From assembly GCA_037137555.1 (NCBI GenBank), contig JBAXKA010000003.1:1-35782 (forward strand): a DNA stretch of 35,782 nucleotides, read 5' to 3'. Shown in pieces: positions 1,989 through 35,627 of the stretch. Each line of letters begins with the position of its first letter. Within the stretch, counting starts at the first letter, position 1. The translations under genes were made by a program, and so were the position numbers. A model generated the notes under the pieces. That model was given only the letters and a program-made list of their open reading frames with translations, ran no database searches and was not told where the DNA came from. Source of the DNA: Candidatus Moraniibacteriota bacterium. Its GTDB lineage: Bacteria; Patescibacteriota; Minisyncoccia; Moranbacterales; UBA2206.

Positions 1989-3335
1989 ATGTCTTTTGAT
2001 CTAACTAAAGAAATTAAATTAGACGAAAAAAGTTATTCCCAATATCGACGCTGGCAATTATTTTTTTATCTTACTGGCTTTGTCGCATCGCTCTATGTCG
2101 CTTATTTTATTTTTTTCCCTACCCAAGAATTTAATTTTTCTTTTTTAATGTTGACATCTAACAAAGGCAACGCCCTTAACCCCAGAAACTTTGATGGCAC
2201 GCTGATTACAGATGGAAATTTTTCCGCCAAACAAAAAAAATATTTTGATACATCACTTGTTGGCAGTTTTTCCAAAATTAAATTAAGCTTTACGCCGAAT
2301 AAACAATCTGCAAAACCAGAAAATATGCATATTGATCTGCGAAAGTCCTATCGTGCATTTCTTTATCTGGAAGGCGAACCAGTCGGATTCAAAAATGGCA
2401 CACTATTGGAAAATAATCATAATTTTTATTTAGTTTCTGACGGGAAATTAAGAAAATTTAGCAATCTTGAAATTATCGCATCGCTCGGTTTTCCGCAAAC
2501 GGCTTTTGTTACTATAAACAATATCACTGAATTAAATTATAATCTTTTGGGCGAAGAGATCACTGATCCAAAAAATTATCCTGCTGACACGATCTTTAAA
2601 ATTGCTAATTTTTATTATCAACTAAATTCTGCTGGCTCGTTAAATAAATTTATCAGCACCACAGCATTTCATAGTCAATATGACGAAAAATTAGCTATCA
2701 CCAAAGATCCTGACTTTCTCAAAAATTATTCTATCACGGAGAATCCTATTGGCTTTGCTGATGGAACGCTAATTTCCTATGGCACATCCGTTTTTATTGT
2801 GAGTAAAAATAAAATTTATCCGGTTGGCGATCCAGATATTTTCATCAATCAAGGTTATGCGTGGAACGATATTATCACAGTCAGCGGAGATGAATTTTCT
2901 CTCTATGAAAAAGAAAAGCTTTTCACACTTACCAGCATTCATCCGGACGGCACTATTTTTTTCACGCCAGATTCTGCCAAATGGTATCAAATTAAAAATG
3001 GCCAAAAACATGAATTGCCCTCAGAGAAAATTGCAAATTCTTGGCTTCAAAAAAATCCCATTCTTGTTTCCGCTAAAAGTCTTGATATTTTGGGCGGGTG
3101 CGAATTACAAAAAGAATTTTTTGGCAATTATTCCTGTCTAATTCCTCTGAACGATCAGGAAGACACGGCGGGAAAATATTACGAATTTACTTTTGCCACA
3201 AAAGACGATCTTAAAATTAACAATCTCAATGTGCTCTACGAAAAAAATATGACTATCCCCAATCTTAAATTAGCCCTACGCACTATGATTCTAAAAATAA
3301 AAGCCCGCTATGGCATTCAAACAAACTCACAATAA
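1989..3335 (+). CDS. Hypothetical membrane-anchored extracytoplasmic protein
   Basis: 448-aa ORF with one N-terminal TM helix (WQLFFYLTGFVASLYVAYFIFF) and then a large soluble domain. It starts 11 nt after the upstream GT-C gene, so is probably co-transcribed. No motif recognised. Confidence 0.6.
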   Translation: MSFDLTKEIKLDEKSYSQYRRWQLFFYLTGFVASLYVAYFIFFPTQEFNFSFLMLTSNKGNALNPRNFDGTLITDGNFSAKQKKYFDTSLVGSFSKIKLSFTPNKQSAKPENMHIDLRKSYRAFLYLEGEPVGFKNGTLLENNHNFYLVSDGKLRKFSNLEIIASLGFPQTAFVTINNITELNYNLLGEEITDPKNYPADTIFKIANFYYQLNSAGSLNKFISTTAFHSQYDEKLAITKDPDFLKNYSITENPIGFADGTLISYGTSVFIVSKNKIYPVGDPDIFINQGYAWNDIITVSGDEFSLYEKEKLFTLTSIHPDGTIFFTPDSAKWYQIKNGQKHELPSEKIANSWLQKNPILVSAKSLDILGGCELQKEFFGNYSCLIPLNDQEDTAGKYYEFTFATKDDLKINNLNVLYEKNMTIPNLKLALRTMILKIKARYGIQTNSQ

Positions 3336-3350
3336 TATTATCTAAACATT

Positions 3351-3755
3351 ATGCTCAACAAAAAAATTCATTCCCCAAATACGCTAACAATTTGCTATAA
3401 ATTATTGCATGACAGTTTGTTTATGCTAATTATTTTTTTCACACTAACCCTCATCACCGAAGCCGTTCTTCCTGGCACTATTATTTCGCATATTGGTTTT
3501 TCCAAAATAATTATTGCGATGCTTCTGAATATTTTTATCCTAAAAATACTGGAAAAAAAAATCACACCAGATCAAGTTGATAAAAATATTTGTCCAAAAA
3601 ATAATAATCTTAAAAAAATCATCATCCCCTTTTCCGCTCTTGGCGCACTGCTCATTTTCAACAGCCAACTAGGCATGAATATTTTTTTAAATTTATTTTT
3701 ACTATTAATTTGTGCGATTTTGGGCTATTTAAGTTATTGGATTTTGTTTGATTAG
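3351..3755 (+). CDS. Small integral membrane protein (4 predicted TM), hypothetical
   Basis: 134-aa hydrophobic ORF. Its last 161 nt plus about 90 nt downstream are duplicated at 5698-5947. Confidence 0.55.
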   Translation: MLNKKIHSPNTLTICYKLLHDSLFMLIIFFTLTLITEAVLPGTIISHIGFSKIIIAMLLNIFILKILEKKITPDQVDKNICPKNNNLKKIIIPFSALGALLIFNSQLGMNIFLNLFLLLICAILGYLSYWILFD

Positions 3756-3844
3756 TTTTTGTTTTTTTGTTATAGTTTGAGTGTGGTTAAGTCGTGCAAA
3801 ATAGCTGAAAACATTTTGGATATAAACGCATTTTGGCGAAATGC
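3595..3844 (+). repeat. Direct repeat copy 1 (about 250 bp): 3' end of the 134-aa gene plus downstream attI-like relic
   Basis: Matches 5698-5947 at a constant offset of 2103 nt. I found no mismatches in the first ~220 nt. Three mismatches cluster at 3814-3825 and the copies diverge completely after GGCGAAA (3841/5944). Confidence 0.95.
3776..3841 (+). other. Relic of the integron Pc/attI region (attI-like site without recombinase gene)
   Basis: TTTGAGTGTGGTTAAGTC (3776-93) resembles TTTGAGTATAATTAAATC (30943-60). CAAAATAGC resembles CAAAAATAGC. CTGAAAACATTTTGGATATAAACG (3805-28) matches CTGAAAACACTTCGGATATAAACG (31002-25) at 22/24. It is followed by TTTTGGCGAAA where attI has GTTATCTGAAA. 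A second copy lies at 5879-5944. Confidence 0.6.
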
Positions 3845-3923
3845 TATGCGCTTCGCTGTGAAAATGGTTTATTTATAAGGGGAAATGAGCTACTATGCAA
3901 TTATTAAACTAAATTAAAAAAAT

Positions 3924-4526
3924 ATGAAAGGACTTATTTACATAATAACAACGGCCGTTTCTGGTTTAATTAAAATAGGACAAACTGGCACGGGTAATTA
4001 TCAGGAGCGAATGCGTAATCTTGAGGCGAATGGCTACTATAATGTTTCTGGTCTTAAAAGATTTTTTGCGATCGAACTTGAAGATTACAACGATAAAGAA
4101 AATCTTTTAAAGGAAATTTTTAATAAACATCAAGTTGGGAACAGTGAATTATTTGCTCTTGATTATGATTTAGTGAGACAGCTTTTATTGTCATTCGAAG
4201 GCAAGGTGGTATATCCCAAAGATATAAACAAAGAAAAAGAATTTGATGAGGTTTCGAAAGCGAGAGAACAAGGGGTGCGGTTTAGTTTTTATAAAAAAGG
4301 TATCGGGAACGGAGAAGAAATTGTTTTTATAGCTGACAAAGAAATTACTGCGAAAGTAGTTGGCGAGCGCGAAGTAGAATATGGTGAACAAATTTGGAAA
4401 CTTGCACCATTAACATACAAAATATATGAGCAAAAGGGCGGATTAAATGAGAGCAAAGCATATCAAGGAGCCGCTTATTGGCAATATAAAAGCAAAAGAC
4501 TGAGAGATTTGCCTGATATTAATTGA
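3924..4526 (+). CDS. T5orf172 / GIY-YIG-superfamily domain protein with an uncharacterised C-terminal domain
   Basis: The N-terminus MKGLIYIITT..GLIKIGQTG..YQERMRNLE..NSELF fits the T5orf172 (MUG113) GIY-YIG-like pattern. The C-terminal ~90 aa ends in YQGAAYWQYKSKRLRDL, possibly DUF4357-like; this is from memory and unverified. Confidence 0.65.
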   Translation: MKGLIYIITTAVSGLIKIGQTGTGNYQERMRNLEANGYYNVSGLKRFFAIELEDYNDKENLLKEIFNKHQVGNSELFALDYDLVRQLLLSFEGKVVYPKDINKEKEFDEVSKAREQGVRFSFYKKGIGNGEEIVFIADKEITAKVVGEREVEYGEQIWKLAPLTYKIYEQKGGLNESKAYQGAAYWQYKSKRLRDLPDIN

Positions 4527-4531
4527 AAAAT

Positions 4532-4616
4532 ATGACGCAATCAAAAGGCTTAATTTAGGAGTTTTCAAGGCATTTTTATTAAAAATGACGCAATTGGCTT
4601 GAAATAATGACGCAAT
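4532..4616 (+). promoter_or_regulatory. Three direct copies of ATGACGCAAT upstream of / overlapping the Fic gene start (candidate operator)
   Basis: Exact 10-mers at 4532-4541, 4585-4594 and 4607-4616, each preceded by A-rich sequence. They lie in the 80-nt T5orf172-Fic intergenic region. Confidence 0.45.
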
Positions 4617-5671
4617 GGTGCTATGATGTATTTATGAATAAAAGACAACAACAAATCATAGAATTTGCCAAGAAAAATCATTCTTTCCAAAATAAAGAAT
4701 TGGTTACTTTTTTTGATGATAAATATTCCAGAGAAACAATTACCAGAGACCTGTCTTTTTTATGCACACAAAATTTTTTGCAAAAAAACGGTGCTGGAGC
4801 TTTTGTAGTTTATTCGCTGTCCGACGCATATGGAAGCTTAAAAGAAGTTGATATTCAAAAATATTTTAAAACTCCATATTTAAAAAGAGATGTAAAGGAA
4901 AGTTTTAATTTTGAAATCTTTTCCATATTAAAAGATGATATTTTTACAGTGGAAGAAAAAGAAAAGCTGGAAAACTTACAAAGAAAATTTATTAAAAATT
5001 TCTCCAAATACGATAGCCAAACGCTTATCAATAAAGAATTTGAAAGAATAATGATTGAGTTTTCTTGGAAGTCATCGGCAATAGAGGGGAATACCTACTC
5101 ACTCCTAGGCACAGAAGCCTTGATTAAAAATAATGTCATCGGGGAAGGCAAGACCAAGGAAGAAACTCAAATGATTCTCAATCATAAAGACGCTTTTAAT
5201 GAGGCGATCCAAAATAGGGCGCGTTTTATTAAATTACGATTGGCTGATGTTGAATATATCCATTCTGTTTTAACAAAAAAACTTGGAATAACCAAAAATA
5301 TTAGAAAAGCCGGGGTTGGCATTACTGGCACAAAGTATAAACCCCTGGATAATGAATCGCAAATCAAAGAAGCATTGCAAAATATGGTTGATTTTATCAA
5401 CAAAAAGGAATCATTTTTTGAAAAGGCCTTTTTGATTTCTATCCTTATCGCCTATATCCAGATTTTTGAAGATGGAAATAAAAGGACTTCGCGGATGATT
5501 TCCAATGCTATTTTATTAGCACATCATTCAATCCCACTTTCTTACAGAATCGTAGATGTTGAAGAGTACAAAAAGGCGATTATATTATTTTATGAGCTAA
5601 ATAATCTTGCTTATTTCAAACAGATATTTATAGAGCAATTCGAAGATGCGGTCAATAATTATTTCAAATAA
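4607..5671 (+). CDS. Fic/DOC-family protein with N-terminal winged-HTH and a degenerate Fic motif (His replaced by Gln)
   Basis: The Fic motif position reads IQIFEDGNKRTSR, versus canonical HxFx(D/E)GNGRxxR. An inhibitory-helix-like motif SSAIEGN ([ST]xxxE[GN]) lies upstream. The N-terminal ~60 aa look DeoR/wHTH-like. The likely true start is the ATG at 4634 (MNKRQQQ...). Confidence 0.75.
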   Translation: MTQWCYDVFMNKRQQQIIEFAKKNHSFQNKELVTFFDDKYSRETITRDLSFLCTQNFLQKNGAGAFVVYSLSDAYGSLKEVDIQKYFKTPYLKRDVKESFNFEIFSILKDDIFTVEEKEKLENLQRKFIKNFSKYDSQTLINKEFERIMIEFSWKSSAIEGNTYSLLGTEALIKNNVIGEGKTKEETQMILNHKDAFNEAIQNRARFIKLRLADVEYIHSVLTKKLGITKNIRKAGVGITGTKYKPLDNESQIKEALQNMVDFINKKESFFEKAFLISILIAYIQIFEDGNKRTSRMISNAILLAHHSIPLSYRIVDVEEYKKAIILFYELNNLAYFKQIFIEQFEDAVNNYFK

Positions 5672-5697
5672 CCACTTATGAACGAATCAGAAACAAA

Positions 5698-5947
5698 CAA
5701 AAAATAATAATCTTAAAAAAATCATCATCCCCTTTTCCGCTCTTGGCGCACTGCTCATTTTCAACAGCCAACTAGGCATGAATATTTTTTTAAATTTATT
5801 TTTACTATTAATTTGTGCGATTTTGGGCTATTTAAGTTATTGGATTTTGTTTGATTAGTTTTTGTTTTTTTGTTATAGTTTGAGTGTGGTTAAGTCGTGC
5901 AAAATAGCTGAAAACATGTTGGGTATAGACGCATTTTGGCGAAAGGC
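5698..5947 (+). repeat. Direct repeat copy 2: orphan 3' fragment of the 134-aa membrane-protein gene plus attI-like relic
   Basis: Duplicate of 3595-3844. It has no upstream in-frame start: the ATG at 5679 reads a different frame and stops at 5706-5708, so the coding part is a gene remnant. Confidence 0.9.
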
Positions 5948-6077
5948 ATTTTTTACTTTTGGGCAATCGCCCATCTCAAAAAAAGAATTTGAATTTTGTT
6001 TTTTTATTAATTTATAAAGGGGTATGAGGTGTTTTCTCCGCTACGAAAACGATTTAATTATATTGTAAAATATAGAT

Positions 6078-7670
6078 ATGAATACAACGACCATTAAACA
6101 ATTGTTGACCATAAAAGAGGCTTGCGAATGGGCAAGCTCGTTTTTAGGTCGTGCAATCAGTGAAACAAATATTTCTTACTTAATACAATATGGAAAAGTA
6201 AAAAAATATGGTGAAAATGGCAGTACTCAAATTCATATTAATGATTTAAAAAATTATTATCAATCATTTAACGGAACAAGAGAGGTTGAATGGAAAAAAA
6301 AGCTAGGCGATGACTTAAATTGGAGTTTGTCATTTGATAATTTAAGAGAAACAGATACCACAAAACATGTTCATAGGCTGCACCCATACAAAGGTAAATT
6401 TATTCCTCAATTAGTTGAGTATTTTATAGATGAACATACTGATGATTTTAAAAAACAATCCTTTTTCAAAAAAGGCGATATTGTATTAGATCCTTTTTCT
6501 GGTTCAGGGACAACTCTTGTGCAAGCAAATGAACTTGGTATTCATGCAATAGGTGTAGATATTTCTCGATTTAATTGCATGATAACCGATACAAAACTAC
6601 TAGACTATAACTTAAATTTATTAATACAAGACATCAAAACTATAAACTTAGCGATTACTAAATTTGAAACTGACGCAAAAATACAAGAATTTGAAAAAGA
6701 ATTATATTTTGAATTATCAAAATTCAACAATGAACATTTTCCATCCCCAGATTATAAAAGAAAAATTTATAAAAAAGAAATCGATGAAAATAAATATTCG
6801 GCTACTAAAGAAAAAGAATTTTTATCAATCTATAATAAATTAGTAAAAAAGTATAAAATTGAATTAAAACAAGAAAAAAATAACTCTTTTCTTGATAAAT
6901 GGTACATAAAAAATATACGAAAAGAGATTGATTTTGCATTTGAACAAATCAAGCAAATAAAAAATGAAAAAAATAAAAGAGTTTTGGCTGTGATATTAAG
7001 TAGAACAATTCGCTCTTGTAGGGCAACTACTCATTCTGATTTAGCTACATTAAAAGAACCTCAGACAACTACTTATTATTGTTGGAAACATAAAAAAATT
7101 TGCAAACCTCTTTTTTCTATTAAATATTGGTTTAGTCGTTATGCAAACGACACTATTGCTAGAATTAAAGAATTTCAAAAATTAAAAAATGGTGTACATT
7201 GGGCATCGATTACTGGCGATTCCAGAACCGTTGATATAGCAAAAGAAATTCAATTAAGAAATAAAGAATTTTATAATCTTATAAAAAACCAAAAGATTAA
7301 AGGGATATTTTCTTCACCGCCATATGTCGGACAAATAGATTATCATGAGCAACATGCTTATGCATATGATCTTTTCAGTTTTGAAAGAAAAGATGAGTTA
7401 GAAATTGGTCCATTATACAAAGGACAGGGAATGGAAGCCAAAAAATCGTATGTCGAAGGTATATCGCAAGTTTTGCTAAATTCAAAAAAATACTTTGCAA
7501 ATAATTATGATGTATTTTTGGTAGCAAATGATAAATGGAATTTATATCCTACAATAGCCGAGAAAGCTGGCATGAAAATTGTCAATCAATACAAACGACC
7601 AGTATTAAATCGCACAGAAAGAGATAAAAATCCTTATTCAGAAATAATATTTCATTTAAAAAATAATTAA
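6078..7670 (+). CDS. SAM-dependent DNA methyltransferase (N6-adenine or N4-cytosine), type II R-M
   Basis: HPYKGKFIPQLV...VLDPFSGSGTT (motifs X/I, aa ~101-146), GVDIS (motif II), and SSPPY (motif IV, aa ~411-415). A ~200-aa Lys/Glu-rich insert lies between them. The N-terminal ~45 aa look HTH-like. The gene stops 1 nt before the next ORF. Confidence 0.85.
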   Translation: MNTTTIKQLLTIKEACEWASSFLGRAISETNISYLIQYGKVKKYGENGSTQIHINDLKNYYQSFNGTREVEWKKKLGDDLNWSLSFDNLRETDTTKHVHRLHPYKGKFIPQLVEYFIDEHTDDFKKQSFFKKGDIVLDPFSGSGTTLVQANELGIHAIGVDISRFNCMITDTKLLDYNLNLLIQDIKTINLAITKFETDAKIQEFEKELYFELSKFNNEHFPSPDYKRKIYKKEIDENKYSATKEKEFLSIYNKLVKKYKIELKQEKNNSFLDKWYIKNIRKEIDFAFEQIKQIKNEKNKRVLAVILSRTIRSCRATTHSDLATLKEPQTTTYYCWKHKKICKPLFSIKYWFSRYANDTIARIKEFQKLKNGVHWASITGDSRTVDIAKEIQLRNKEFYNLIKNQKIKGIFSSPPYVGQIDYHEQHAYAYDLFSFERKDELEIGPLYKGQGMEAKKSYVEGISQVLLNSKKYFANNYDVFLVANDKWNLYPTIAEKAGMKIVNQYKRPVLNRTERDKNPYSEIIFHLKNN

Positions 7671-7671
7671 T

Positions 7672-8466
7672 ATGGCATTATCAAAAAATTTACAACAGAA
7701 GGTTTATAAATTTATAAAGGACAAAGTCCTAAAGAAAATTGACGCATACAATTTGAGCGATGAGGATTCATCAAAACCTTTTCAATATGCTCTTTTTACA
7801 AAAAAGGGTTACTTGGCAAAAGGATTTATTCATGGATGCGAAACAGCACTTGGGAACTGGCACGAAACCATAGCAAAAATTATTGCTACTGAAAATTTTG
7901 CAACTGCAAATAAATTACAAGGGCAAAACAAGTTGAAAGGAAAAATCACAAGAGAAGCACAAAGAACATTAGAAAATATTTTAAGTGATCTTGATAGTGT
8001 TAAAAGGGAGCCGAATCATAAGTCAGAGTCAGAAGAAATTTTCAATGCTAGCCAAAACCTCAAAAAAACAGAGGCCAGAATACAAACTGTTGATCTCTAT
8101 CTAGAAACAAAGGATGGTGAAGAAATTTATTTTGAAATAAAAGGGCCTAAGCCAAATAAAAACGAAATGAGAGCAGCAAAAAGAGACTTGCTAGAAATAT
8201 ATGCAATAAGATCAACAGAAAGCAAGAAAGTCAAAATTTATCTAGGTATGTATTATAACCCCTATTATCCTGAAGATTACCAAAGATGGACATGTTTAAA
8301 ATTCTTTGATGAAGGAAATGACTTTCTTATTGGCAAAGATTTTTGGGACTTCTTAGGAGGAAGTGGTGCTTACGAGGAACTGATTGATATTTATGAAAAA
8401 GTTGGAGAAGAAATAAGACCAGTGCTAGACCAAAAGTTCAAGGACATCGCAAAGAGTCAAAACTAA
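7672..8466 (+). CDS. Type II restriction endonuclease, PD-(D/E)xK fold (possibly TdeIII-like)
   Basis: 264 aa, translationally adjacent to the MTase. VDLYLETKDGEEIYFEIKGPKPN gives a D...ExK nuclease motif. The TdeIII family assignment is from memory only. Confidence 0.65.
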   Translation: MALSKNLQQKVYKFIKDKVLKKIDAYNLSDEDSSKPFQYALFTKKGYLAKGFIHGCETALGNWHETIAKIIATENFATANKLQGQNKLKGKITREAQRTLENILSDLDSVKREPNHKSESEEIFNASQNLKKTEARIQTVDLYLETKDGEEIYFEIKGPKPNKNEMRAAKRDLLEIYAIRSTESKKVKIYLGMYYNPYYPEDYQRWTCLKFFDEGNDFLIGKDFWDFLGGSGAYEELIDIYEKVGEEIRPVLDQKFKDIAKSQN

Positions 8467-8472
8467 TAAGAA

Positions 8473-8527
8473 GTTTTGGTTTTTGGCCATTCACACCCTC
8501 AATTCCCCTCTGCCAAAAATCCAAAAC
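8473..8527 (+). other. Stem-loop with conserved C-rich 24-nt loop immediately after the REase stop
   Basis: GTTTTGGTTTTTGGC (8473-87) pairs with GCCAAAAATCCAAAAC (8512-27), giving 15 bp with one bulge. The loop is CATTCACACCCTCAATTCCCCTCT. A homologue with a covarying stem lies at 32229-32281. Confidence 0.7.
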
Positions 8528-8574
8528 AAAAAAACTTATCTAATCTATTTAAAATAAAAAATAAATCAACCAAT

Positions 8575-9690
8575 TCAATCCTTCAAATATTCCAGCGTTT
8601 CTTTCGCACATTTTTCCCAAGAAAACTTTTTGATTTGTTCGGTGCCTTTTTTGATCATAGTTTCTCGTAAGTTTTTATCTTTCAAGACCAGTTCGATTTT
8701 TTCCGCCAAATCAACGGGACTTTTTTCTTGAAAATATAATGGCGCATCGCCACCCACTTCACCAAGGCTAGAATTTAATGCACAAATCAGTGGCACACGA
8801 GAAGCAAGAATTTCCAACACAGGCAAGCCAAAACCTTCATAAAGCGATGGATAAACATACACGCTGGCACCACGAACCAAATGACCCAAATCAGAAAAAG
8901 TTAATCGACCGGGAGTTAGAATATCTTTTTTAAAACGACTTTCTGCAATTTGTTTAAACACATCATCAGAAAGCCATGCCCGCTCCCCTGCAATAACTAA
9001 TTTAATTTTTGATTTAGTTTTTTCTTTGAAAATATCAAAAGCCGAAACCAAAACGCCCAAATTTTTTCTTGGCTGAATCGCACCGGCGTATAAAATATAC
9101 TCACCAGAAATGTTCATTTTATTTTTCACCGCCTGCTCAATCGAAAAATCTCGTTCAATAGAAAAAACTTCTGCGTCAAAACCATGATAAATCACTTTGA
9201 TTTTATGCTCACTTACATTTGGATAAAATTTTAAAATATCTTTTTTGGTTGATTCGGAAATTGCAATAATTTTGTCCGCTTTTGTAAATGCCCATTTTCC
9301 TAAAAGATTTAATTTAAACAAATCTTTTTTGGGAAAATATTCCGGAAAATATTTATAGGCCAAATCATGTGCCGTTACGACTGTTTTTATTTTTGTCGCA
9401 CAAAACACCGGAATATTATGCATCGGCATCCAAAGCACATCCGGTTTATCTTTTCGCAACTCATTGGCTAGCCAAAGTTGAGTCCAAAATACAGGAAAGT
9501 TTTTTTGTTTAATTTTATAGTTGGGAAAATTCGGCGGAGCAAGTTCAGGATTAAATTTATTTTTATGATACAACAAAAAATCACTAGAGTTATCTAGTTT
9601 TCCAAAATATTTCAACATATTCTGAATATAAACACGAGTTCCGTCAATACGACTCGCGTCCAAATCAGCAACTTGAATAGCAATTTTCAT
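8575..9690 (-). CDS. Glycosyltransferase family 4 (GT-B)
   Basis: 371 aa. C-terminal signature YPSLYEGFGLPVLEILASRVPLI, typical of GT4/GT1 retaining transferases. Confidence 0.85.
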   Translation of the reverse strand: MKIAIQVADLDASRIDGTRVYIQNMLKYFGKLDNSSDFLLYHKNKFNPELAPPNFPNYKIKQKNFPVFWTQLWLANELRKDKPDVLWMPMHNIPVFCATKIKTVVTAHDLAYKYFPEYFPKKDLFKLNLLGKWAFTKADKIIAISESTKKDILKFYPNVSEHKIKVIYHGFDAEVFSIERDFSIEQAVKNKMNISGEYILYAGAIQPRKNLGVLVSAFDIFKEKTKSKIKLVIAGERAWLSDDVFKQIAESRFKKDILTPGRLTFSDLGHLVRGASVYVYPSLYEGFGLPVLEILASRVPLICALNSSLGEVGGDAPLYFQEKSPVDLAEKIELVLKDKNLRETMIKKGTEQIKKFSWEKCAKETLEYLKD

Positions 9691-15834: not shown

Positions 15835-17670
15835 TTACTCTTTTTTAGCCTTATAAATACTCACAAAGTTTTTTGGTCTGCCATCAATATTTATTTTCCA
15901 CATAGGCTTTTCCGACAAATCCTCTTTAAGAATATTCCAAATTTTATTATTTGCTATTGCTCCCCTGCGTGTCATAACATAATAATCAATCGTATTTTCT
16001 TCTGACTTTCCCATATAATTATTATACCCAGAAGCTTGAATGCAAGTTCCATTAAAAAAATAACAGACGCCCCAATAATCTGACCAGACTTTTAAATTAG
16101 TCGAATTTGGCAAAGCATTTAAAATTTGTGCCGCTTCATAACCACCATAACCCCAAGCACCTGTGATAATCCTGTCTTTTGGTAATAAATTACTTGTATA
16201 ATTAAAATAATACGGCTTGATAAACCATAAGCTCAAACTGCTTATGCCAACAATGACTAGCACTGCTATGAATTTATGTTGCACACGATTTATTTTTCCT
16301 AAAATAAACTCATCAATCGAAAAAGCTGCGATCAACATTAATAATGGATAAAGCATCACGCTATAACGAATATTAACTAAAAGATCTTGCTTTAAAACCG
16401 CCGCATAAAAAACAATCAAAAAAACTGAAGCAGAAAAAACAATCAAAGGATATTTTAATTTTACAAATATGCCCTTAATCCATAAGGCGATGACTGAAAA
16501 TAAAACTAATGGGGTGAGAGAAAAAACTAGTGGATAAATTTCCAGAAATAATTTATCCTGAAAGTCTTGTCTGCGAAATGGATAGCTACTCCCCGCATCA
16601 AAATTCATGCCTTTTATGTTTAAAAAATTATCCATACCAAACCAGTTAAATAAAACCAAACAAAACATCGTTGCAATAATAAAAAATATTACTCTCATCA
16701 AGAACGGAAAAATCTTGTTAATTATTTTTGCCAGAAAAAACATAATTCTAGATTGCAAAAAATGAGCATCAAGATAAATCAACAAATTCAATAACATAAT
16801 AGACCAAAATATTGGTGCCATGCCCTTAAAACCAATTGTGCCGTAATAAAAAAAACTAGGGTCAACAATAACAGCTGGCATCAATATCGCGAAAACAAAA
16901 AATGAACCAGCTAAAATAGCTAAATAAGTTAATATATTTTCCTTGGCTCTTTTGGAAAAATCAAGCTGATTTTTTTCTTGCAACAGATGAATCAATATCA
17001 ACATAAAGAAAAACGGAATAAAAATAACGGCCGAATATTTACTTAAAAGTGCAAAGCCAAATAATATCGAGCATAAAATGGCATCTTTTTTTCCTCGATA
17101 TTTCAGATAATTTAAAAGTGAAATGAGTGCAGAGAAAGAAAAAATCCATAAAAGCGAATCGGGATTGATGATTTGAGAAACGCCAATAATAATCGGGTTC
17201 AATAAAATCAAAGTTACGGCGGTTAGTGCTAGCCATCTATTTTCCGTTAAGCGTTTGATTGCCCAAAAAAGAAATAGTGAAAATAATCCGTTGAAAATTA
17301 GAAGTGGCAAACGAAACGCTAGATTAATTCTTTCCGTTTCCGCGGATGTAAAATTACTTTGATAATCCGCTGTTTCAATAGTGCGTTCATGTAAATTATC
17401 TTCAAATAAAATTCCAATACCAGAAACATACGCCAACATCACTCCGGGTTTATCATTTATTCGTGTGCTTAGCCAATCATTTTTTGCAATCGCATTCCAA
17501 TAATCATGAATCCTACCTGCCGTTGGATCATACATCCAATAATGCTCATCGGCTGTTTCGAATTTTGTTATATGATAAACACCAAAAGCAAAATAAAGAC
17601 TGAGCGGTATTAAAAGCAGTAGCAAAAATTTGCTTTTTAGTTGTTTTTTTATGGATTGAATTTTTTGCAT
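15835..17670 (-). CDS. GT-C / PMT_2-family membrane glycosyltransferase (paralogue A)
   Basis: Aligns along its whole length with the upstream paralogue (FETADEHYWMY...RINDKPGVMLAYVSG vs FVSFDEHYWLY...RINDKPGITLAYVSG). I trimmed the track ORF (to 17919) to the ATG at 17670 (MQKIQSIKK...), because the extension overlaps the upstream gene. Confidence 0.8.
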   Translation of the reverse strand: MQKIQSIKKQLKSKFLLLLLIPLSLYFAFGVYHITKFETADEHYWMYDPTAGRIHDYWNAIAKNDWLSTRINDKPGVMLAYVSGIGILFEDNLHERTIETADYQSNFTSAETERINLAFRLPLLIFNGLFSLFLFWAIKRLTENRWLALTAVTLILLNPIIIGVSQIINPDSLLWIFSFSALISLLNYLKYRGKKDAILCSILFGFALLSKYSAVIFIPFFFMLILIHLLQEKNQLDFSKRAKENILTYLAILAGSFFVFAILMPAVIVDPSFFYYGTIGFKGMAPIFWSIMLLNLLIYLDAHFLQSRIMFFLAKIINKIFPFLMRVIFFIIATMFCLVLFNWFGMDNFLNIKGMNFDAGSSYPFRRQDFQDKLFLEIYPLVFSLTPLVLFSVIALWIKGIFVKLKYPLIVFSASVFLIVFYAAVLKQDLLVNIRYSVMLYPLLMLIAAFSIDEFILGKINRVQHKFIAVLVIVGISSLSLWFIKPYYFNYTSNLLPKDRIITGAWGYGGYEAAQILNALPNSTNLKVWSDYWGVCYFFNGTCIQASGYNNYMGKSEENTIDYYVMTRRGAIANNKIWNILKEDLSEKPMWKINIDGRPKNFVSIYKAKKE

Positions 17671-30101: not shown

Positions 30102-30917
30102 TTATTCTAGTGGACTTTTAATTTTCCTTAACATCGGATTAGTCACTTTCGTATAAATCTGGGTTGTTCTAATGTTAGCATGCCCTAGCAATTCTTGCAC
30201 GAAACGAACATCTACGCCATTTTCTAACAAATGCGTTGCAAAACTATGACGCAAAGAATGAAATGTCGCCTCTTTTTTAATTCCCGCTTTTTTGAGTGCA
30301 GTTTCAAAAACTTTTTGTGCAGTTCTTTCGGTTAATTTTCCACCGCGTTCACTAGCGAAAATATAATCATTGAGTTTTTTGTTTGCAATTAATTTTTCAA
30401 CATCACCAATTAGTTTTTCCGGCAAAAGTGTTATCCGATCTTTATTTCTTTTAGCGTCTTTAATGTGAATCGTCAATTCCGCCAAACAAACATCTTTAAC
30501 TTTCAAATTAATAATCTCACTCACCCGCAAACCACCAGAATAAGCCAAAGCAATCATCAAATTATGTTTTTTATTATTAATTACTAGCAATATTTTTTCA
30601 ATTTCAGCGCGAGAAAGCACAATCGGTAACTTGCTTGGAGTCTTGGCAAAGCGCACATCAATTTTTCCCCGAAATTTCAAAACATTCCAGCAGAAGAAGT
30701 TAATCGCTTGCAAATTCTGATTAGACATCTGCGATGATTTCCCCTCATCTATTTTTGACAAAATATACTGCTTAATAAAATCCACATCAACAATTTCAAA
30801 ATTATTCTGTTTAGCTTTTAAATAATTAGTAACACAATAAGTATATGCACTGATAGTTTTTGGACTATATTTTCTCAATCGCAATTCATCATTTAGTTTT
30901 TTTAAGTAAAAATCCAT
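30102..30917 (-). CDS. Tyrosine site-specific recombinase, integron-integrase-like but lacking the IntI-specific insertion
   Basis: 271 aa. R (GGLRVSE), HSLRHSFATH (HxxR) and LLGHANIRTTQIYTKV (H, Y). SAM-like N-terminal domain (YSPKTISAYTYCVTNYL) and a ...KSPLE C-terminus. It is divergent from the cassette array. Confidence 0.85.
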   Translation of the reverse strand: MDFYLKKLNDELRLRKYSPKTISAYTYCVTNYLKAKQNNFEIVDVDFIKQYILSKIDEGKSSQMSNQNLQAINFFCWNVLKFRGKIDVRFAKTPSKLPIVLSRAEIEKILLVINNKKHNLMIALAYSGGLRVSEIINLKVKDVCLAELTIHIKDAKRNKDRITLLPEKLIGDVEKLIANKKLNDYIFASERGGKLTERTAQKVFETALKKAGIKKEATFHSLRHSFATHLLENGVDVRFVQELLGHANIRTTQIYTKVTNPMLRKIKSPLE

Positions 30918-30998: not shown

Positions 30999-31037
30999 TA
31001 TCTGAAAACACTTCGGATATAAACGAGTTATCTGAAA
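30999..31037 (+). other. attI-like site: two direct TATCTGAAA boxes; inferred crossover G|TT at 31027/31028
   Basis: TATCTGAAA occurs at 30999-31007 and at 31029-31037. The second box is part of GTTATCTG (31027-34), the exact reverse complement of cassette 1's inverse core CAGATAAC (32349-56). Confidence 0.65.
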
Positions 31038-32281: not shown

Positions 32282-32348
32282 AAAATTCAATTAATTCATT
32301 ACAGAAATACTATTCCTCTGCTGAGGAATGAAAAGAAAAAGCAAACAT

Positions 32349-32437
32349 CAGATAACACGGCATATCTGGTTACGGCTTTTTACAAAAGCCTCCACCCAAA
32401 TTGCTACGCAACTTCAGATATGCCGAAACGTTAGCTG
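32349..32437 (+). other. attC-like site 1 (89 bp)
   Basis: R'' CAGATAAC; P1 GGCATATCTG (32359-68) pairs with CAGATATGCC (32415-24); P2 GGCTTTT/AAAAGCC; conserved CCACCCAAATT (32392-402); R' GTTAGCTG (32430-37). Confidence 0.75.
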
Positions 32438-33815
32438 AAATAAATTTTTATCTTTGTAGTAATTTCAAGTTCTGTGCGTTGATCAAAGACGAAAATTTGA
32501 TTTTTTAAATTAAAAGTTTTTTCCGCTTCGCGGATTATTTGGGGGCAATTTTATTTTTTATTTTAAATACAATATGATGAACAAACAAATCAACACCGCT
32601 TTGGCGATTGCGGTAATAATCATAATCGCTGGAATTGCGGGCGGAACAATTTATACAAACATTGCGAATAACAATCCGGCCACAATTATTCCTGTAATCA
32701 ATAAAACTCAACAAAACAAAGTTATTAGCAAATCTTCAGATGATATTGCTATAGGCAAGTCATGTGATGCTCGTAATTTAAAATCCTACAACGGTGGCGG
32801 AGAAATTGCAGCCACAAAAGGTTTACAATGTTATATGTACGACGACCTTTCTGACAGAATGCTTAACAATGGCAAGTGGATTTATCCGAGCGGCAAGGAA
32901 ACGGTTCGCAAGGGCGTTTGGGTTTATCCGAATCATATGAGCATACCGATATTCTTAGCCCAAGAAAAACCTTCCTTGTTTGATACGGTTTCAATAAATG
33001 ACCTTACACAAAACTGGAAGTTATACGATAATTCCAACGGTAATTATAGTTTTAAGTTTCCGAAACAATGGGAAGTAAAAAAAGACGCTTCAAATGCAAA
33101 CCAATTGACAATAGAAAAAATAAATACGACCGAAGCAAATACTATATTCGCAACAATCACATATTATCCGAATGCTAAATTCGAAACTACAGATGATTAT
33201 CAAAATATTAACGAAGCTCCAGATGATTGGCTTGTGCCTGACAATTCTACTGACACATTCATCCTTACTCGCCATTTTGATTTAAATGGCGCTACTGCAC
33301 TCTTAGTCGAAAGAATGAATAATTTTGACTTGGGTGGAAGTTCTTATGGCGAAACAATTTTTGTCACTAAGCCAAATTCATATTTTACGATTGAATATAC
33401 AAAATATCAGGACGCCGATATTGATTTGCCAGTAGAGATGTTAATTAAAACCTTACGGTTTAAATAACATCTTATAAAAAAATAAGGAAGAAAAATAAAA
33501 AATAAAATTGCCCCCAAATAATCGTTTTGCCATTCGGCAAAACAAAAACTTTTAATTTAAAAAATCAAATTTTCTTTACGATAAGCAAAGTTTATACTGT
33601 TAAAGACGAAGATAAAAATTTACATCAGCTAACACGGAGTAAACGGTTCAGAAATTTTTCAATATTAATAATTAGAGGAGTAAAAAATTTCTTCACCCAA
33701 ATTCGTTTTCCTTAGTCAGTGCCATTATCAAGATTAGTGCATTTAATATAATTCCGTTAAGATAACAAAGTTTAATCAATTAAGTCGGAAAACGAACTTC
33801 GTTTACTCCGATACG
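32431..33815 (+). mobile_element. Gene cassette 2
   Basis: Opens TTAGCTG and ends at G of GTTATGTG. The IR arms are 32430-32564 and 33492-33633, including perfect 31-bp (32491-521/33544-74) and 32-bp (32533-64/33492-523) blocks. Confidence 0.75.
32574..33467 (+). CDS. Cassette 2 ORF: secreted/membrane-anchored hypothetical protein
   Basis: 297 aa. N-terminal signal-anchor (ALAIAVIIIIAGIAGGTIY) and then a soluble domain. No motif recognised. Confidence 0.65.
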   Translation: MMNKQINTALAIAVIIIIAGIAGGTIYTNIANNNPATIIPVINKTQQNKVISKSSDDIAIGKSCDARNLKSYNGGGEIAATKGLQCYMYDDLSDRMLNNGKWIYPSGKETVRKGVWVYPNHMSIPIFLAQEKPSLFDTVSINDLTQNWKLYDNSNGNYSFKFPKQWEVKKDASNANQLTIEKINTTEANTIFATITYYPNAKFETTDDYQNINEAPDDWLVPDNSTDTFILTRHFDLNGATALLVERMNNFDLGGSSYGETIFVTKPNSYFTIEYTKYQDADIDLPVEMLIKTLRFK

Positions 33816-33822
33816 TTATGTG
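33626..33822 (+). other. attC-like site 2 (197 bp)
   Basis: R'' CAGCTAAC; P1 GGAGTAAACG (33636-45) pairs with CGTTTACTCC (33800-09); P2 33650-59/33683-92; conserved TCACCCAAATT (33693-703); P3 CGTTTTCC (33704-11) pairs with GGAAAACG (33787-94); R' GTTATGTG (33815-22). Confidence 0.75.
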
Positions 33823-34957
33823 AAATACCCAGAAATTTCTTTATTCATTTTTAAGATTTTTTTGGCGAATGCACGGGTCGAATAACTCAGATATAAATAA
33901 TTAAAATTAATTTTAAAAAACAAAGTATGAAAAACAAAAGAGGAAACGTTGCCGTAATTGCGCTTATCATCGTTATTGTGGCAATTACAACAGGCGTAAT
34001 CACTTGGCTTATCGCGACAAAAACACAAGCGCCAGTTCAGCAGGCAGTTGTAACTCAACCTGCGCCAGTTGCAAAAACACAGCCAGTAGTTCAATCTACC
34101 ACGCCAACTGCACAGTCAACACCAGCTAGCGATGTGAGTAAACAGGGCATTAAAGAATATAAATCAGGGAATACATTCAGTTTTAATTATCCTTCTCAAG
34201 TTTGTGATCCTGAAAGTAAAAAATGTTATCCGATTGTGTTGTCTGAAGATAAATCAGTAATCACACTAAATGCTTCAGAAGGTGGTTTATTTAAGATTTA
34301 TTATGGTACAAATATTACTGATGATAAATCAGCTAATAATTTCTTACAAACCACATTGAAGAACGGACTATGCAAGATTGATACAACTGAAACTAATATG
34401 CTACAAGGAACAACGATTAAAAATGTTTTCTTAGATGGAGGTTGTTCTCTTTATGGTCCTGCATATGAAAAATATTCTTCTGCTCATCCGGATGCAATTG
34501 GCTTAGCTGGAAAAAATAGGGCTTATTGGGCAACTGATAGCAAGGAAATGATTGTCTATGTTCTTGGTCAGGGAGGTGGTTGTTCATTTCTTGATTGTGA
34601 ATTGGAAGGAAAAATATCAGAAAGTATTAACCTTGGTGGAATCAATGTATTTGATAAATCTATGAGTGGAATTTAAAAACAGTGTCGCAAAAGAAATAAT
34701 TTTTTGAATTCATAAATGCAATTCGCCAAAAAATACATTAAGGAGGAAGAAATTTCTGGGTACATCACATAACAGCCCATATCTGGCTACAGGAAATTGA
34801 CGCTATTGAAAACAATATTGAGTGTCAATTTCCCTCCGCCCAAATTTTCATCCCTTAGTTTTGATGAAGGTTTAGGTGGAGTTCATCAAAAAATATATCA
34901 GCCTATAATCAAAGTCTATCCTATAAAACGGGATGAAAACTTCAGATATGGGCAACG
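33816..34957 (+). mobile_element. Gene cassette 3
   Basis: Opens TTATGTG and ends at G of GTTAGGCG. The IR arms are 33815-33872 and 34718-34773, with a perfect 16-bp block at 33826-41/34747-62. Confidence 0.75.
33927..34676 (+). CDS. Cassette 3 ORF: membrane-anchored extracytoplasmic protein with P/T/Q/V-rich linker
   Basis: 249 aa. N-terminal TM (VAVIALIIVIVAITTGVITWLIA), the linker QAPVQQAVVTQPAPVAKTQPVVQSTTPTAQSTPA, and a Cys-containing globular domain. Confidence 0.65.
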   Translation: MKNKRGNVAVIALIIVIVAITTGVITWLIATKTQAPVQQAVVTQPAPVAKTQPVVQSTTPTAQSTPASDVSKQGIKEYKSGNTFSFNYPSQVCDPESKKCYPIVLSEDKSVITLNASEGGLFKIYYGTNITDDKSANNFLQTTLKNGLCKIDTTETNMLQGTTIKNVFLDGGCSLYGPAYEKYSSAHPDAIGLAGKNRAYWATDSKEMIVYVLGQGGGCSFLDCELEGKISESINLGGINVFDKSMSGI

Positions 34958-34964
34958 TTAGGCG
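34766..34964 (+). other. attC-like site 3 (199 bp)
   Basis: R'' CACATAAC; P1 CCCATATCTG (34776-85) pairs with CAGATATGGG (34943-52); P2 AGGAAATTGAC (34791-801) pairs with GTCAATTTCC (34824-33); conserved CCGCCCAAATT (34836-46); P3 TTTCATCCC (34846-54) pairs with GGGATGAAA (34930-38); R' GTTAGGCG (34957-64). Confidence 0.75.
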
Positions 34965-35072
34965 AAAAAACTAAAAATTTCCTCTCTATTTTTGAAAAGA
35001 ATTTTTGGCAATTTTGCTCGGTCGATAACTCGGTATATAATTAAGATAAGTTTAACAAATTAAAAAAAAATT

Positions 35073-35627
35073 ATGAAAAAAGTATTAGCAATAAGTTCGG
35101 TGTTGCTTGGAGTCGTCTTTTTGGCTGGGTGTGGTCAACAGCCGGTGAGTCAAACGCAGCCAACAACGCCAGCTCCCATAGTGAAACAGCCAGCAACTAC
35201 TCCTCCGGTCGCAACTCAACCAGCGCCAACAACTCCAGCCGTCACTCAAAATTACATTGAAGTAAAAGAATTGGGATTCAAGATTCCCGTTGATGCCTCA
35301 AGCGCAAATGAGATAACTTACAAAATTACACAAGTCACAAAAGACAGTCCAACTCCTGGCGTGTACTTTTCAACCAAGGAGCTAAACTCAATGAGTAAGG
35401 ATTGCGAAGAAGGATCGATTGGGGCAATTTCAAAAGTGTCTGGCAAAGTATCCACAGATCCTAATTCAGAAAATTTCATGCCAGGAGAAATAAAACAACT
35501 CCAAGGTTTTTCACTGGTATTTCAGACTCCTCAAGCCCCTTGTCACTCCGGCGACAACTCTCTGGATAGAAAATTTATGCAAATCCTTGAAACTGGATTT
35601 AAAAATGCGGTTCTACTTGGTCAGTAA
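35073..35627 (+). CDS. Cassette 4 ORF: lipoprotein with P/T/Q-rich linker
   Basis: 184 aa. Signal peptide with lipobox (VFLAGC|GQQ), the linker QPTTPAPIVKQPATTPPVATQPAPTTPAV, and then a globular domain. Confidence 0.7.
   Translation: MKKVLAISSVLLGVVFLAGCGQQPVSQTQPTTPAPIVKQPATTPPVATQPAPTTPAVTQNYIEVKELGFKIPVDASSANEITYKITQVTKDSPTPGVYFSTKELNSMSKDCEEGSIGAISKVSGKVSTDPNSENFMPGEIKQLQGFSLVFQTPQAPCHSGDNSLDRKFMQILETGFKNAVLLGQ

What the first reader, a model, noticed from the sequence alone, without database searches (positions are those of the whole stretch)
3595..5947. 250-bp direct repeats (gene 3' end plus downstream) enclose a two-gene T5orf172-Fic insert
Seen: 3595-3844 and 5698-5947 match at a constant offset of 2103 nt. 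I saw no mismatches in the first ~220 nt. Three mismatches cluster at 3814-3825 and the copies diverge completely after GGCGAAA. Copy 1 completes the 134-aa membrane-protein gene. Copy 2 is an orphan C-terminal fragment with no in-frame start. The 1.85 kb between them carries only the T5orf172-like and Fic genes.
Inference: this is the footprint of a Campbell-type insertion of a circular element carrying a homologous copy of this segment, or of site-specific insertion at the attI-like sequence inside the repeat. The near-identity implies a recent event. The mismatches confined to the attI-like end suggest the two copies came from different alleles or sites.
Basis: partly seen in the sequence, partly recalled or inferred. 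Interest (0 to 1): 0.62.

Follow-up and report, generated by a model that had tools for sequence, protein, structure and literature searches.

The report
Duplicated gene-end flanking two defence genes
A 247-base piece (the end of a small membrane-protein gene plus an integron-attI-like site) is truly present twice around two candidate phage-defence genes in a candidate-phyla (Moranbacteria-like) bacterium. It is the scar of one microhomology join plus homologous exchange in a strain-variable defence/cassette island, not the fresh footprint of a self-mobile element.

Summary
3595-3841 and 5698-5944 are direct repeats at offset 2103, with three mismatches, all in the last 27 nt. A second assembly (L001) spans both copies. 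In two runs of another study the repeat has about twice the depth of its 1:1:1 neighbours.

The repeat holds the last 161 nt of a 134-aa membrane-protein gene plus an 86-nt spacer. The spacer's end matches the attI-like box beside the window's Xer-like recombinase 24/27. The insert is PDC-S57 (T5orf172) plus a SoFic-like Fic.

The site is a variable defence/cassette island between the membrane gene and a GT4 gene. Sister strains carry type I R-M, Pycsar, EcoRI R-M or small cassettes there.

The Fic-to-copy-2 joint is a 9-nt microhomology (CAAAAAATA). The distal mismatches stay linked to whatever lies downstream, so the other crossover was homologous, not at the attI-like core.

The same two joints occur in lineages that differ by about 1% and carry other downstream cassettes. 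Both copies share lineage-specific SNPs, so the event is not recent; the copies are kept alike by gene conversion.

I favour homology-facilitated illegitimate recombination. A Campbell-type circle remains possible.

The parts
3351..3755 (+). 134-aa predicted membrane protein gene (left flank of the island); no family match
   Evidence: same length in L010 and L011
3595..3841 (+). Repeat copy 1 (R1): last 161 nt of the membrane gene, a 48-nt conserved spacer and a 38-nt attI-like/cassette-start part
3595..3603 (+). CAAAAAATA inside the membrane gene: parental microhomology used for joint J2
3748..3776 (+). Promoter-like TTGATT-17-TATAGT with TG, facing the cassettes; repeated at 5851-5879. Consensus match only.
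3802..3828 (+). attI-like box TAGCTGAAAACATTTTGGATATAAACG (24/27 to 30999-31025)
   Evidence: score 39; shuffles 20.3 +/- 2.8, max 37
3831..3884 (+). Cassette-type leader 'e' (TTTTGGCGAAATG...TATAAGGGGAA). It is like L011 copy e1 (3 mismatches), not e2 (10). The breakpoint to T5orf172-linked sequence lies at about 3874-3885 (joint J1).
3924..4526 (+). T5orf172-domain protein; matches PADLOC candidate defence family PDC-S57
   Evidence: PF10544, 1.5e-6; PDC-S57, 3.1e-53
4607..5671 (+). wHTH + Fic/Doc-family protein; SoFic / PDC-S04-like
   Evidence: PF02661, 2.7e-13; HTH_DeoR; SoFic, 2.6e-19
5698..5706 (+). Joint J2: CAAAAAATA shared by the Fic downstream sequence (as in L002/L005/L011) and the membrane gene
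5698..5944 (+). Repeat copy 2 (R2): orphan 3' gene fragment, spacer and attI-like box (5905-5931), with the G-G-G distal signature
5941..6077 (+). Leader of the R-M cassette, collinear with the leader of cassette 1 of the integron-like array
6078..8466 (+). Type II R-M pair (N4/N6 methyltransferase 6078-7670, TdeIII endonuclease 7672-8466)
   Evidence: The same pair sits between two attC-like sites in Peregrinibacteria contig L025.
8473..8527 (+). C-rich-loop hairpin at the 3' end of the R-M module (also after cassette 1 and after the R-M pair in L025)
8546..9690 (-). Right boundary of the variable region (homology to all haplotypes resumes at 8546-8556) and the GT4 glycosyltransferase gene 8575-9690
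30102..30917 (-). Xer-like tyrosine recombinase of the integron-like array, 24 kb away; the only candidate enzyme for the attI-like boxes
   Evidence: PF00589, 2.1e-44
30999..31025 (+). Recombinase-proximal attI-like box homologous to 3802-3828 and 5905-5931

Best explanation
The repeat is a genuine chromosomal duplication of the 3' end of the membrane-protein gene plus a recombinase-less promoter/attI-like platform. It lies in a strain-variable defence/cassette island bounded by the membrane gene and the GT4 gene.

It arose once, through one illegitimate join at a 9-nt microhomology (CAAAAAATA) between the sequence just downstream of Fic and the interior of the membrane gene. A homologous crossover accompanied this join.

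The simplest route is homology-facilitated illegitimate recombination (HFIR). Incoming DNA of a strain with the order membrane gene - R - cassette - GT4 was anchored by homology on the GT4 side. It was joined at the microhomology to a recipient with the order ...leader - T5orf172 - Fic - 205-aa gene - GT4. This replaced the 205-aa gene and left an orphan gene end (R2) in front of the newly arrived cassette.

The arrangement then spread between related lineages by recombination. The cassette after R2 was later exchanged at the attI-like core (R-M here, a 112-aa cassette elsewhere). The first ~210 nt of the two copies have been kept identical by gene conversion.

Shown: the duplication, the joints, the population variation, the linkage of the distal alleles and the shared SNPs. 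Inferred: the HFIR route, gene conversion and any promoter role of R2.
For: - Duplication is real and single-copy.
- J2 microhomology: in L002, L005 and L011 the Fic downstream reads ...AAACAAAAAATAGCTAG..., the membrane gene reads ...GTCCAAAAAATAATAATC..., and the recombinant reads ...AAACAAAAAATAATAATC....
- All haplotypes without J2 have Fic - 205-aa gene - GT4 (L002, L003, L005-L007, L011). Every complete J2 haplotype (the window and L015) lacks the 205-aa gene and has R2 plus a cassette instead. In X6/X7 the same order is inferred from separate contigs.
- Homology of every haplotype resumes at 8546-8556, next to GT4.
- Distal alleles are linked to the downstream sequence. T-A-A/G goes with leader e (window R1, L029, L011). 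G-G-G goes with the R-M or B' cassettes (window R2, L015 R2, L020). The homologous crossover therefore lay left of 3804.
- A haplotype with the membrane gene, R (G-G-G) and B' but no insert exists (X11 record 8 and L020).
- Age: L029 has identical J1 and J2 but 24 substitutions. L015 carries Fic-J2-R2 at 99.76% identity in a backbone that is only 95.9% identical.
- Concerted evolution: 3710C/3719C are in all R depth of X6/X7, while both window copies have T.
- HFIR uses 3-10 bp joins plus one homologous anchor (PMC6382021). Natural competence is shown in Patescibacteria (PMC10633639). The organism is Moranbacteria/Parcubacteria-like by the names of LepA cluster members.
Against: - The predicted recipient haplotype (membrane gene - R - e - T5orf172 - Fic - 205-aa gene - GT4) and the predicted donor for this window (membrane gene - R - TdeIII R-M - GT4) were not found. 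The R-M is near-identical only in run X1.
- HFIR, a Campbell-type circle and unequal sister exchange all predict the same final sequence, and the data do not separate them.
- In X1 the collapsed repeat unitig has depth 13.5, against 9.6-13.5 for its neighbours. It is not doubled there; I attribute this to low, uneven Nextera coverage.
- MEGAHIT contig L009 is a closed 2103-nt loop with no branch at the membrane-gene entry. That would also fit a circular or tandem form in that sample.
- Competence of this organism was not tested.
Confidence: 0.5

Rival explanations
1. Campbell-type insertion. A 2.1-kb circle [R + leader + T5orf172 + Fic] formed earlier by deletion between the two CAAAAAATA direct repeats. 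It then integrated by RecA-dependent recombination within R into a chromosome with the order membrane gene - R - cassette.
For: - It gives exactly the observed order and the observed linkage of distal alleles, provided the crossover lay left of 3804.
- An empty-site-like haplotype exists for the B' series.
- L009 is a closed 2103-nt loop in a k141 graph.
Against: - The unit carries no replication or transfer function, and nothing matching it was found in viral contigs.
- It needs two separate rare events and survival of a non-replicating circle.
- Insert and flanks stand at 1:1 depth in two samples.
- The graph loop is equally expected from a repeat-bounded segment.
Confidence: 0.27
2. Unequal sister-chromatid exchange at the 9-nt microhomology first made a tandem duplication [R-insert][R-insert]. 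The second insert copy (and the 205-aa gene) was later replaced by other cassettes.
For: - It uses the same microhomology joint.
- Later cassette exchange at the R2 attI-like core is documented, with R-M versus the 112-aa cassette at the same place.
Against: - No haplotype with two insert copies was seen in any run or contig.
- It needs an extra replacement step that also removes the 205-aa gene.
Confidence: 0.1
3. Site-specific insertion by the distant Xer-like recombinase at the attI-like core inside the repeat (attI x attI, or attI x secondary site).
For: - The attI-like box lies at the distal end of both copies.
- Cassettes downstream of R2 begin with the cassette-start box, and the 112-aa cassette in L015 ends with an attC-like site.
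- The R-M pair is a bona fide cassette in L025.
Against: - Such an event would not duplicate 209 nt upstream of the core.
- J2 has no G|TT core.
- The distal alleles of R1 and R2 remain linked to their downstream sequences. That is the opposite of what a crossover at the core into an empty-site strain would give.
- There is no attC-like site after Fic.
Confidence: 0.05
4. Assembly artefact: two strain variants were chained through a shared 247-nt sequence.
For: - Short-read graphs collapse the repeat.
- The X1 repeat unitig is not doubled in depth.
Against: - Both novel joints (R to T5orf172 leader, Fic to R) lie on single contigs from three studies (L001, L009, L029).
- L001 spans the whole structure.
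- Repeat depth is doubled in X6 and X7, with 1:1:1 neighbours.
Confidence: 0.03

Closest known systems
Homology-facilitated illegitimate recombination during natural transformation (Acinetobacter baylyi, Streptococcus pneumoniae, Pseudomonas stutzeri; de Vries & Wackernagel 2002, as summarised in PMC6382021)
   Same: There is one long homologous anchor (the GT4 side) and one join at a 3-10 bp microhomology (9 nt here). A resident segment (the 205-aa gene) is replaced, and donor sequence that duplicates a recipient sequence is carried in.
   Different: This is inferred from natural haplotypes of an uncultured CPR bacterium, not observed experimentally. The donor and recipient haplotypes were not both recovered.
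Campbell-type integration and islands that insert into a gene's 3' end and carry a replacement end
   Same: Direct repeats flank the insert. The upstream copy completes the gene and the downstream copy is an orphan fragment.
   Different: The insert carries no integrase. The repeat's left edge is a microhomology joint, not an att core. The insert is a resident distal part of the same island in sister strains.
Integrons and CALINs (clusters of attC sites lacking an integrase), with defence genes as cassettes
   Same: An attI-like box and an outward promoter-like element precede the cassettes. attC-like sites (RYYYAAC ... stem ... GTTRRRY-like, crossover at G|TT) bound neighbouring cassettes in L011, L015 and L025. 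The R-M pair is a cassette elsewhere.
   Different: The platform has no adjacent recombinase. The only candidate is a short Xer-like enzyme 24 kb away. The T5orf172-Fic pair has no attC-like site. The platform itself, with a gene end attached, is duplicated.
Defence-island hotspots with strain-variable content between conserved core genes
   Same: The same two flanks hold type I R-M + Pycsar + PDC-S57 + Fic (L011), EcoRI R-M (L010), TdeIII R-M (this window) or small cassettes (L015).
   Different: Here part of the turnover uses integron-like sites, in a CPR genome.

Membership tests
Integrative element inserted by Campbell/site-specific recombination into a gene 3' end | Direct repeats (att) flank the element, with the gene restored by the upstream copy | tested here: met
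Integrative element inserted by Campbell/site-specific recombination into a gene 3' end | Element-encoded integrase or recombinase | tested here: not met
   Only T5orf172 and Fic lie between the repeats.
Integrative element inserted by Campbell/site-specific recombination into a gene 3' end | Empty-site allele in relatives | tested here: inconclusive
   A haplotype of membrane gene - R - B' exists in the sister series (L020, X11). None was found for the R-M version.
Integrative element inserted by Campbell/site-specific recombination into a gene 3' end | Free circular form | not testable with these tools
   Only collapsed Logan contigs are held. The L009 loop is ambiguous.
Integron gene cassette | attC-like site at the 3' end of the inserted unit | tested here: not met
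   Only 26 nt lie between the Fic stop and R2. In L011, 88 nt follow with no attC-like site. The scan finds such sites only at 32354-32432, 33631-33817, 34771-34959 and L011 15925-16017.
Integron gene cassette | attI-like site at the proximal boundary | tested here: met
   3802-3828 matches 30999-31025 at 24/27, with collinear flanks.
Integron gene cassette | Adjacent integrase | tested here: not met
   The nearest tyrosine recombinase is at 30102-30917.
HFIR product | Novel joint at 3-10 bp microhomology | tested here: met
   9 nt, CAAAAAATA
HFIR product | The other end lies in extended homology shared by donor and recipient | tested here: met
   All haplotypes are homologous from 8546-8556 onward.
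HFIR product | Resident segment replaced | tested here: met
   The 205-aa gene is present in all non-J2 haplotypes and absent from both complete J2 haplotypes, the window and L015.
HFIR product | Naturally transformable host | not tested
   Known for Saccharibacteria (PMC10633639).
PADLOC PDC-S57 / SoFic candidate defence genes | HMM match of the protein | tested here: met
   PDC-S57 3.1e-53; SoFic 2.6e-19; PDC-S04 3.3e-15. Function not tested.

The most novel reading that the evidence does not exclude
The duplicated unit (gene end + outward promoter + attI-like box) is a working second acceptor and expression platform. The island would then have two 'first positions', one driving T5orf172-Fic and one driving whichever cassette lands after R2. 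The 2.1-kb segment [leader-T5orf172-Fic-gene fragment-attI-like] could also be looped out and re-inserted as an attI-bearing pseudo-cassette, by RecA or by the distant Xer-like recombinase. That would explain its spread into at least three backbones.
Probability: 0.15. Interest if true: 0.7.

Novelty: new variant of a known kind. Interest (0 to 1): 0.5.

Why it matters
This is a dated, multi-lineage example of how ultra-small CPR bacteria reshuffle defence genes.

Three processes act in one 5-kb island: illegitimate (microhomology) joining, homologous exchange and integron-like cassette swapping.

It shows that near-identical repeats need not mean a recent insertion. Here the copies co-evolve.

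It shows that a recombinase-less attI-like platform can be duplicated together with a fragment of its neighbouring gene.

It also supports the view that the integron-like system of these bacteria carries R-M and other defence genes as cassettes shared across CPR phyla.

Tried and rejected
I could not search the window's own genome for more repeat copies, competence genes or a second recombinase.
- Genome contigs: neither the membrane protein nor a 35-nt repeat pattern gave a hit.
- Metagenome contigs gave one locus only.
- The exact methylase protein is not on record.
- Viral contigs have no relative of Fic, only a trivial 19-aa match for T5orf172, and no J2 pattern. A phage or viral origin of the unit is therefore unsupported.
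- The short motifs GGCGAAA and TATAAGGGG alone are too common to be informative.
- Depth in X1 does not resolve copy number.
- A simple attC scan finds no site inside 3756-8575 of the window.
- Rejected: a site-specific origin of the duplication, an assembly artefact, and an obligate two-gene T5orf172-Fic system. T5orf172 is truncated in L005/L006 and broken in L015, while Fic stays intact there: the same 354-aa protein in L005/L006 and in L004/L016, which is identical to L015.
Full report
**Observation.** The window holds one long direct repeat, 3595-3844 / 5698-5947, at offset 2103. The copies differ at 3815/5918 (T/G), 3820/5923 (A/G) and 3825/5928 (A/G), and they part for good at 3842/5945. 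The effective repeat (R) is therefore 247 nt. R1 completes the 134-aa ORF 3351-3755. R2 is an orphan: its frame opens after a TGA at 5679-5681 and has no start before the Met108 equivalent.

**Is it real?** Yes.
- JGI contig L001 (3284 nt) equals window 3141-6384 with one SNP. It spans membrane gene, R1, insert, R2 and the methylase start.
- Logan contig L029, from a different study, carries both novel joints on one 1971-nt piece.
- In runs X6 and X7 the word depths are: membrane-gene contig 10.8/15.9, insert 11.2/16.4, exit contig 9.2/14, collapsed repeat 20/28.1. That is one integrated insert per chromosome with the repeat present twice.
- Two loose ends remain. In run X1, the probable source, the repeat unitig is not doubled (13.5 against 9.6-13.5). 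MEGAHIT contig L009 is a closed 2103-nt loop.

**What the parts are.**
- LepA cluster members at 90% identity or more are named Candidatus Moraniibacteriota or Parcubacteria group, so this is a CPR bacterium.
- The T5orf172 protein matches PADLOC candidate defence family PDC-S57 (3.1e-53). The Fic protein matches SoFic (2.6e-19) and PDC-S04.
- Downstream lie a type II methyltransferase and a TdeIII endonuclease.
- R consists of the last 161 nt of the membrane gene, a 48-nt spacer conserved in all strains (to 3803), and a 38-nt distal part.
- The distal part (3802-3828) matches 30999-31025 at 24/27. That site lies beside the window's Xer-like tyrosine recombinase gene 30102-30917 (score 39 against 20.3 +/- 2.8 in shuffles, max 37).
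- The R-M leader is collinear with the leader of the first cassette of that integron-like array.
- attC-like sites (…AAC, 9-11-bp stem … stem, ACG|TT) lie at 32354-32432, 33631-33817 and 34771-34959 in the window. One also lies in L011 just upstream of the T5orf172 leader, and a near-match lies after the 112-aa gene of L015.
- In Peregrinibacteria contig L025 the same methylase-TdeIII pair sits between two attC-like sites and has the same C-rich hairpin at its 3' end.
- A 95%-identical copy of 6036-8494 forms its own 2476-nt contig in bioreactor run X21.
- The earlier scan notes pointed me to the array. I checked only the points cited here.

**The site is a variable island.** The flanks are the membrane gene on the left and GT4 (8575-9690, minus strand) on the right. 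Between them:
- Sister strain L011 (97.5% identical flanks) has HsdR, HsdM, DUF1016, HsdS, DUF6602, a Pycsar-like cyclase, PycTM, a 91-aa ORF, T5orf172, Fic and a 205-aa PsbP-like gene.
- L010 has an EcoRI-type R-M directly after position 3803.
- L005 and L006 have a truncated T5orf172, Fic and the 205-aa gene.
- L015, a differently organised backbone (GT4 side 95.9% identical), has a broken T5orf172, Fic, J2, R2, a 112-aa cassette, an attC-like site, and 86-aa and 241-aa genes.
- All haplotypes regain homology at 8546-8556.

**The joints.**
- *J2 (Fic to R2).* Strains without the duplication read ...GAAACAAACAAAAAATAGCTAG... downstream of Fic. The membrane gene reads ...TTTGTCCAAAAAATAATAATC.... 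The recombinant reads ...GAAACAAACAAAAAATAATAATC.... The joint is therefore the 9-nt microhomology CAAAAAATA, with no G|TT core.
- *J1 (R1 to T5orf172).* L011 has two diverged copies of a 54-nt leader 'e' (7116-7169 after R; 16016-16069 before T5orf172; 80% alike) around its 8.85-kb type I/Pycsar block. The window has one copy. It is e1-like up to TATAAGGGGAA (3 mismatches against 10 for e2) and T5orf172-linked beyond.
- L029 has the same J1 and J2. Each joint therefore arose once.

**Where was the other crossover?** The three distal mismatches are not random.
- T-A-A (T-A-G in L011) is always followed by leader e (window R1, L029, L011).
- G-G-G is always followed by the R-M or B' cassettes (window R2, L015 R2, L020).
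- A crossover at the attI-like core into an empty-site strain would have put the resident's G-G-G in R1. That is not what is seen.
- The exchange that built the duplication therefore lay left of 3804, in plain homology.
- The R-M/B' difference, by contrast, begins at the core (after GACG / GGCGAAA). That fits cassette exchange there.

**Age.**
- L029 differs from the window at 24 substitutions plus 2 single-base indels over 1971 nt, yet it has both joints.
- L015 carries Fic-J2-R2 at 99.76% identity in a backbone that is 95.9% identical.
- Between the window and L011 the insert is 99.56% identical (8/1822), against 97.5% and 98.3% for the flanks.
- The unit has therefore moved between lineages more recently than the backbones diverged, but the duplication predates the window/X6 split.
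- In X6 and X7 all repeat depth carries 3710C and 3719C, whereas both window copies carry T. The copies evolve in concert.

**Empty site.** In X11 a membrane-gene contig (with T at 3623) and the Fic contig both enter a repeat whose only exit is B'. JGI contig L020 starts with that T and runs through R into B', and it differs from L015 at one further site. So a haplotype of membrane gene - R - B' exists. Whether it sits in a separate strain is not shown. No equivalent was found for the R-M version, because the R-M is near-identical only in X1.

**Mechanism.** One illegitimate join plus one homologous exchange explains everything.
- I favour HFIR. Donor DNA (…membrane gene-R-cassette-GT4…) is anchored in GT4. 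It is joined at CAAAAAATA to a recipient with the order …e-T5orf172-Fic-205aa-GT4.
- This accounts in one step for the loss of the 205-aa gene from both complete J2 haplotypes (the window and L015), and for the allele linkage.
- HFIR uses 3-10-bp joins (PMC6382021). Patescibacteria can be naturally competent (PMC10633639).
- A RecA-mediated Campbell insertion of a [R+insert] circle, or unequal sister exchange followed by replacement, give the same sequence and remain open.
- Site-specific insertion at the attI-like core and assembly artefact are disfavoured.
- No viral relative of the unit was found.
- T5orf172 has decayed independently in L005/L006 and L015 while Fic stays intact there: the same 354-aa protein in L005/L006 and in L004/L016, which is identical to L015. 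The two genes are therefore not an obligate pair.

**Possible consequence (inference).** Each R copy carries a promoter-like TTGATT-17-TATAGT facing the cassettes. R2 may therefore give the R-M cassette its own 'first position'.

**Verdict.** The feature is real and the mechanism of origin is largely ordinary. The context is interesting: a duplicated, recombinase-less attI-like platform inside a CPR defence island whose cassettes circulate across CPR phyla.

Noticed in passing
window 6078-8527; L025 4049-7110: The methylase-TdeIII pair is a bona fide cassette between two attC-like sites in a Candidatus Peregrinibacteria MAG (REase 93% aa, DNA 75%). TdeIII homologues at 70-93% identity are named from Moranbacteria, Falkowbacteria, Parcubacteria and Peregrinibacteria. 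A 95%-identical DNA copy forms a separate 2476-nt contig in a bioreactor metagenome (X21).
   Followed up: partly
L010 7021-8519; L025 327-1829: The EcoRI-type R-M that follows the membrane gene in strain L010 is 88.6% identical in DNA to one in the Peregrinibacteria contig. There it sits next to the TdeIII cassette, so the same defence cassettes circulate between CPR phyla.
   Followed up: partly
window 4527-4616: Three copies of AATGACGCAAT-type 15-mers (4527, 4580, 4602) lie between T5orf172 and Fic. The last overlaps the Fic start. They are a possible operator for the Fic wHTH domain.
   Followed up: no
window 4607-5671 (Fic residues ~283-294): The Fic core reads QIFEDGNKRTSR: a Doc-like ...NKR motif with the catalytic His replaced by Gln. 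An S-x-x-x-E-G inhibitory-type motif (SSAIEG) is present upstream.
   Followed up: no
L029 vs window 4809-4897: 11 of the 24 substitutions between the two lineages' inserts cluster in 90 nt of the Fic N-terminal region. This suggests a small recombination patch.
   Followed up: no
window 3531-3605 in run X1: A low-depth X1 contig enters the repeat with the preceding letters ...TACTGGAAAAAAAATGTC. This would be a membrane-gene variant lacking about 30 nt (3561-3590). It is unverified.
   Followed up: no
window 32345-32432 vs L011 15916-16017; window 35064-35162 vs L011 17935-18033: The attC-like site after array cassette 1 is 83% identical to the site upstream of T5orf172 in L011. The start of array cassette 4 resembles the start of the 205-aa PsbP-like gene. 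The two cassette regions therefore exchange parts.
   Followed up: partly
L024 7103-8487: Yet another strain has RibD_C-domain and 105-aa genes (minus strand) next to GT4. This is a further island haplotype.
   Followed up: no
run X1, window 3595-3814: The collapsed repeat unitig has depth 13.5, although two copies at about 10-13x each are expected. This is unexplained; uneven Nextera coverage is suspected.
   Followed up: partly
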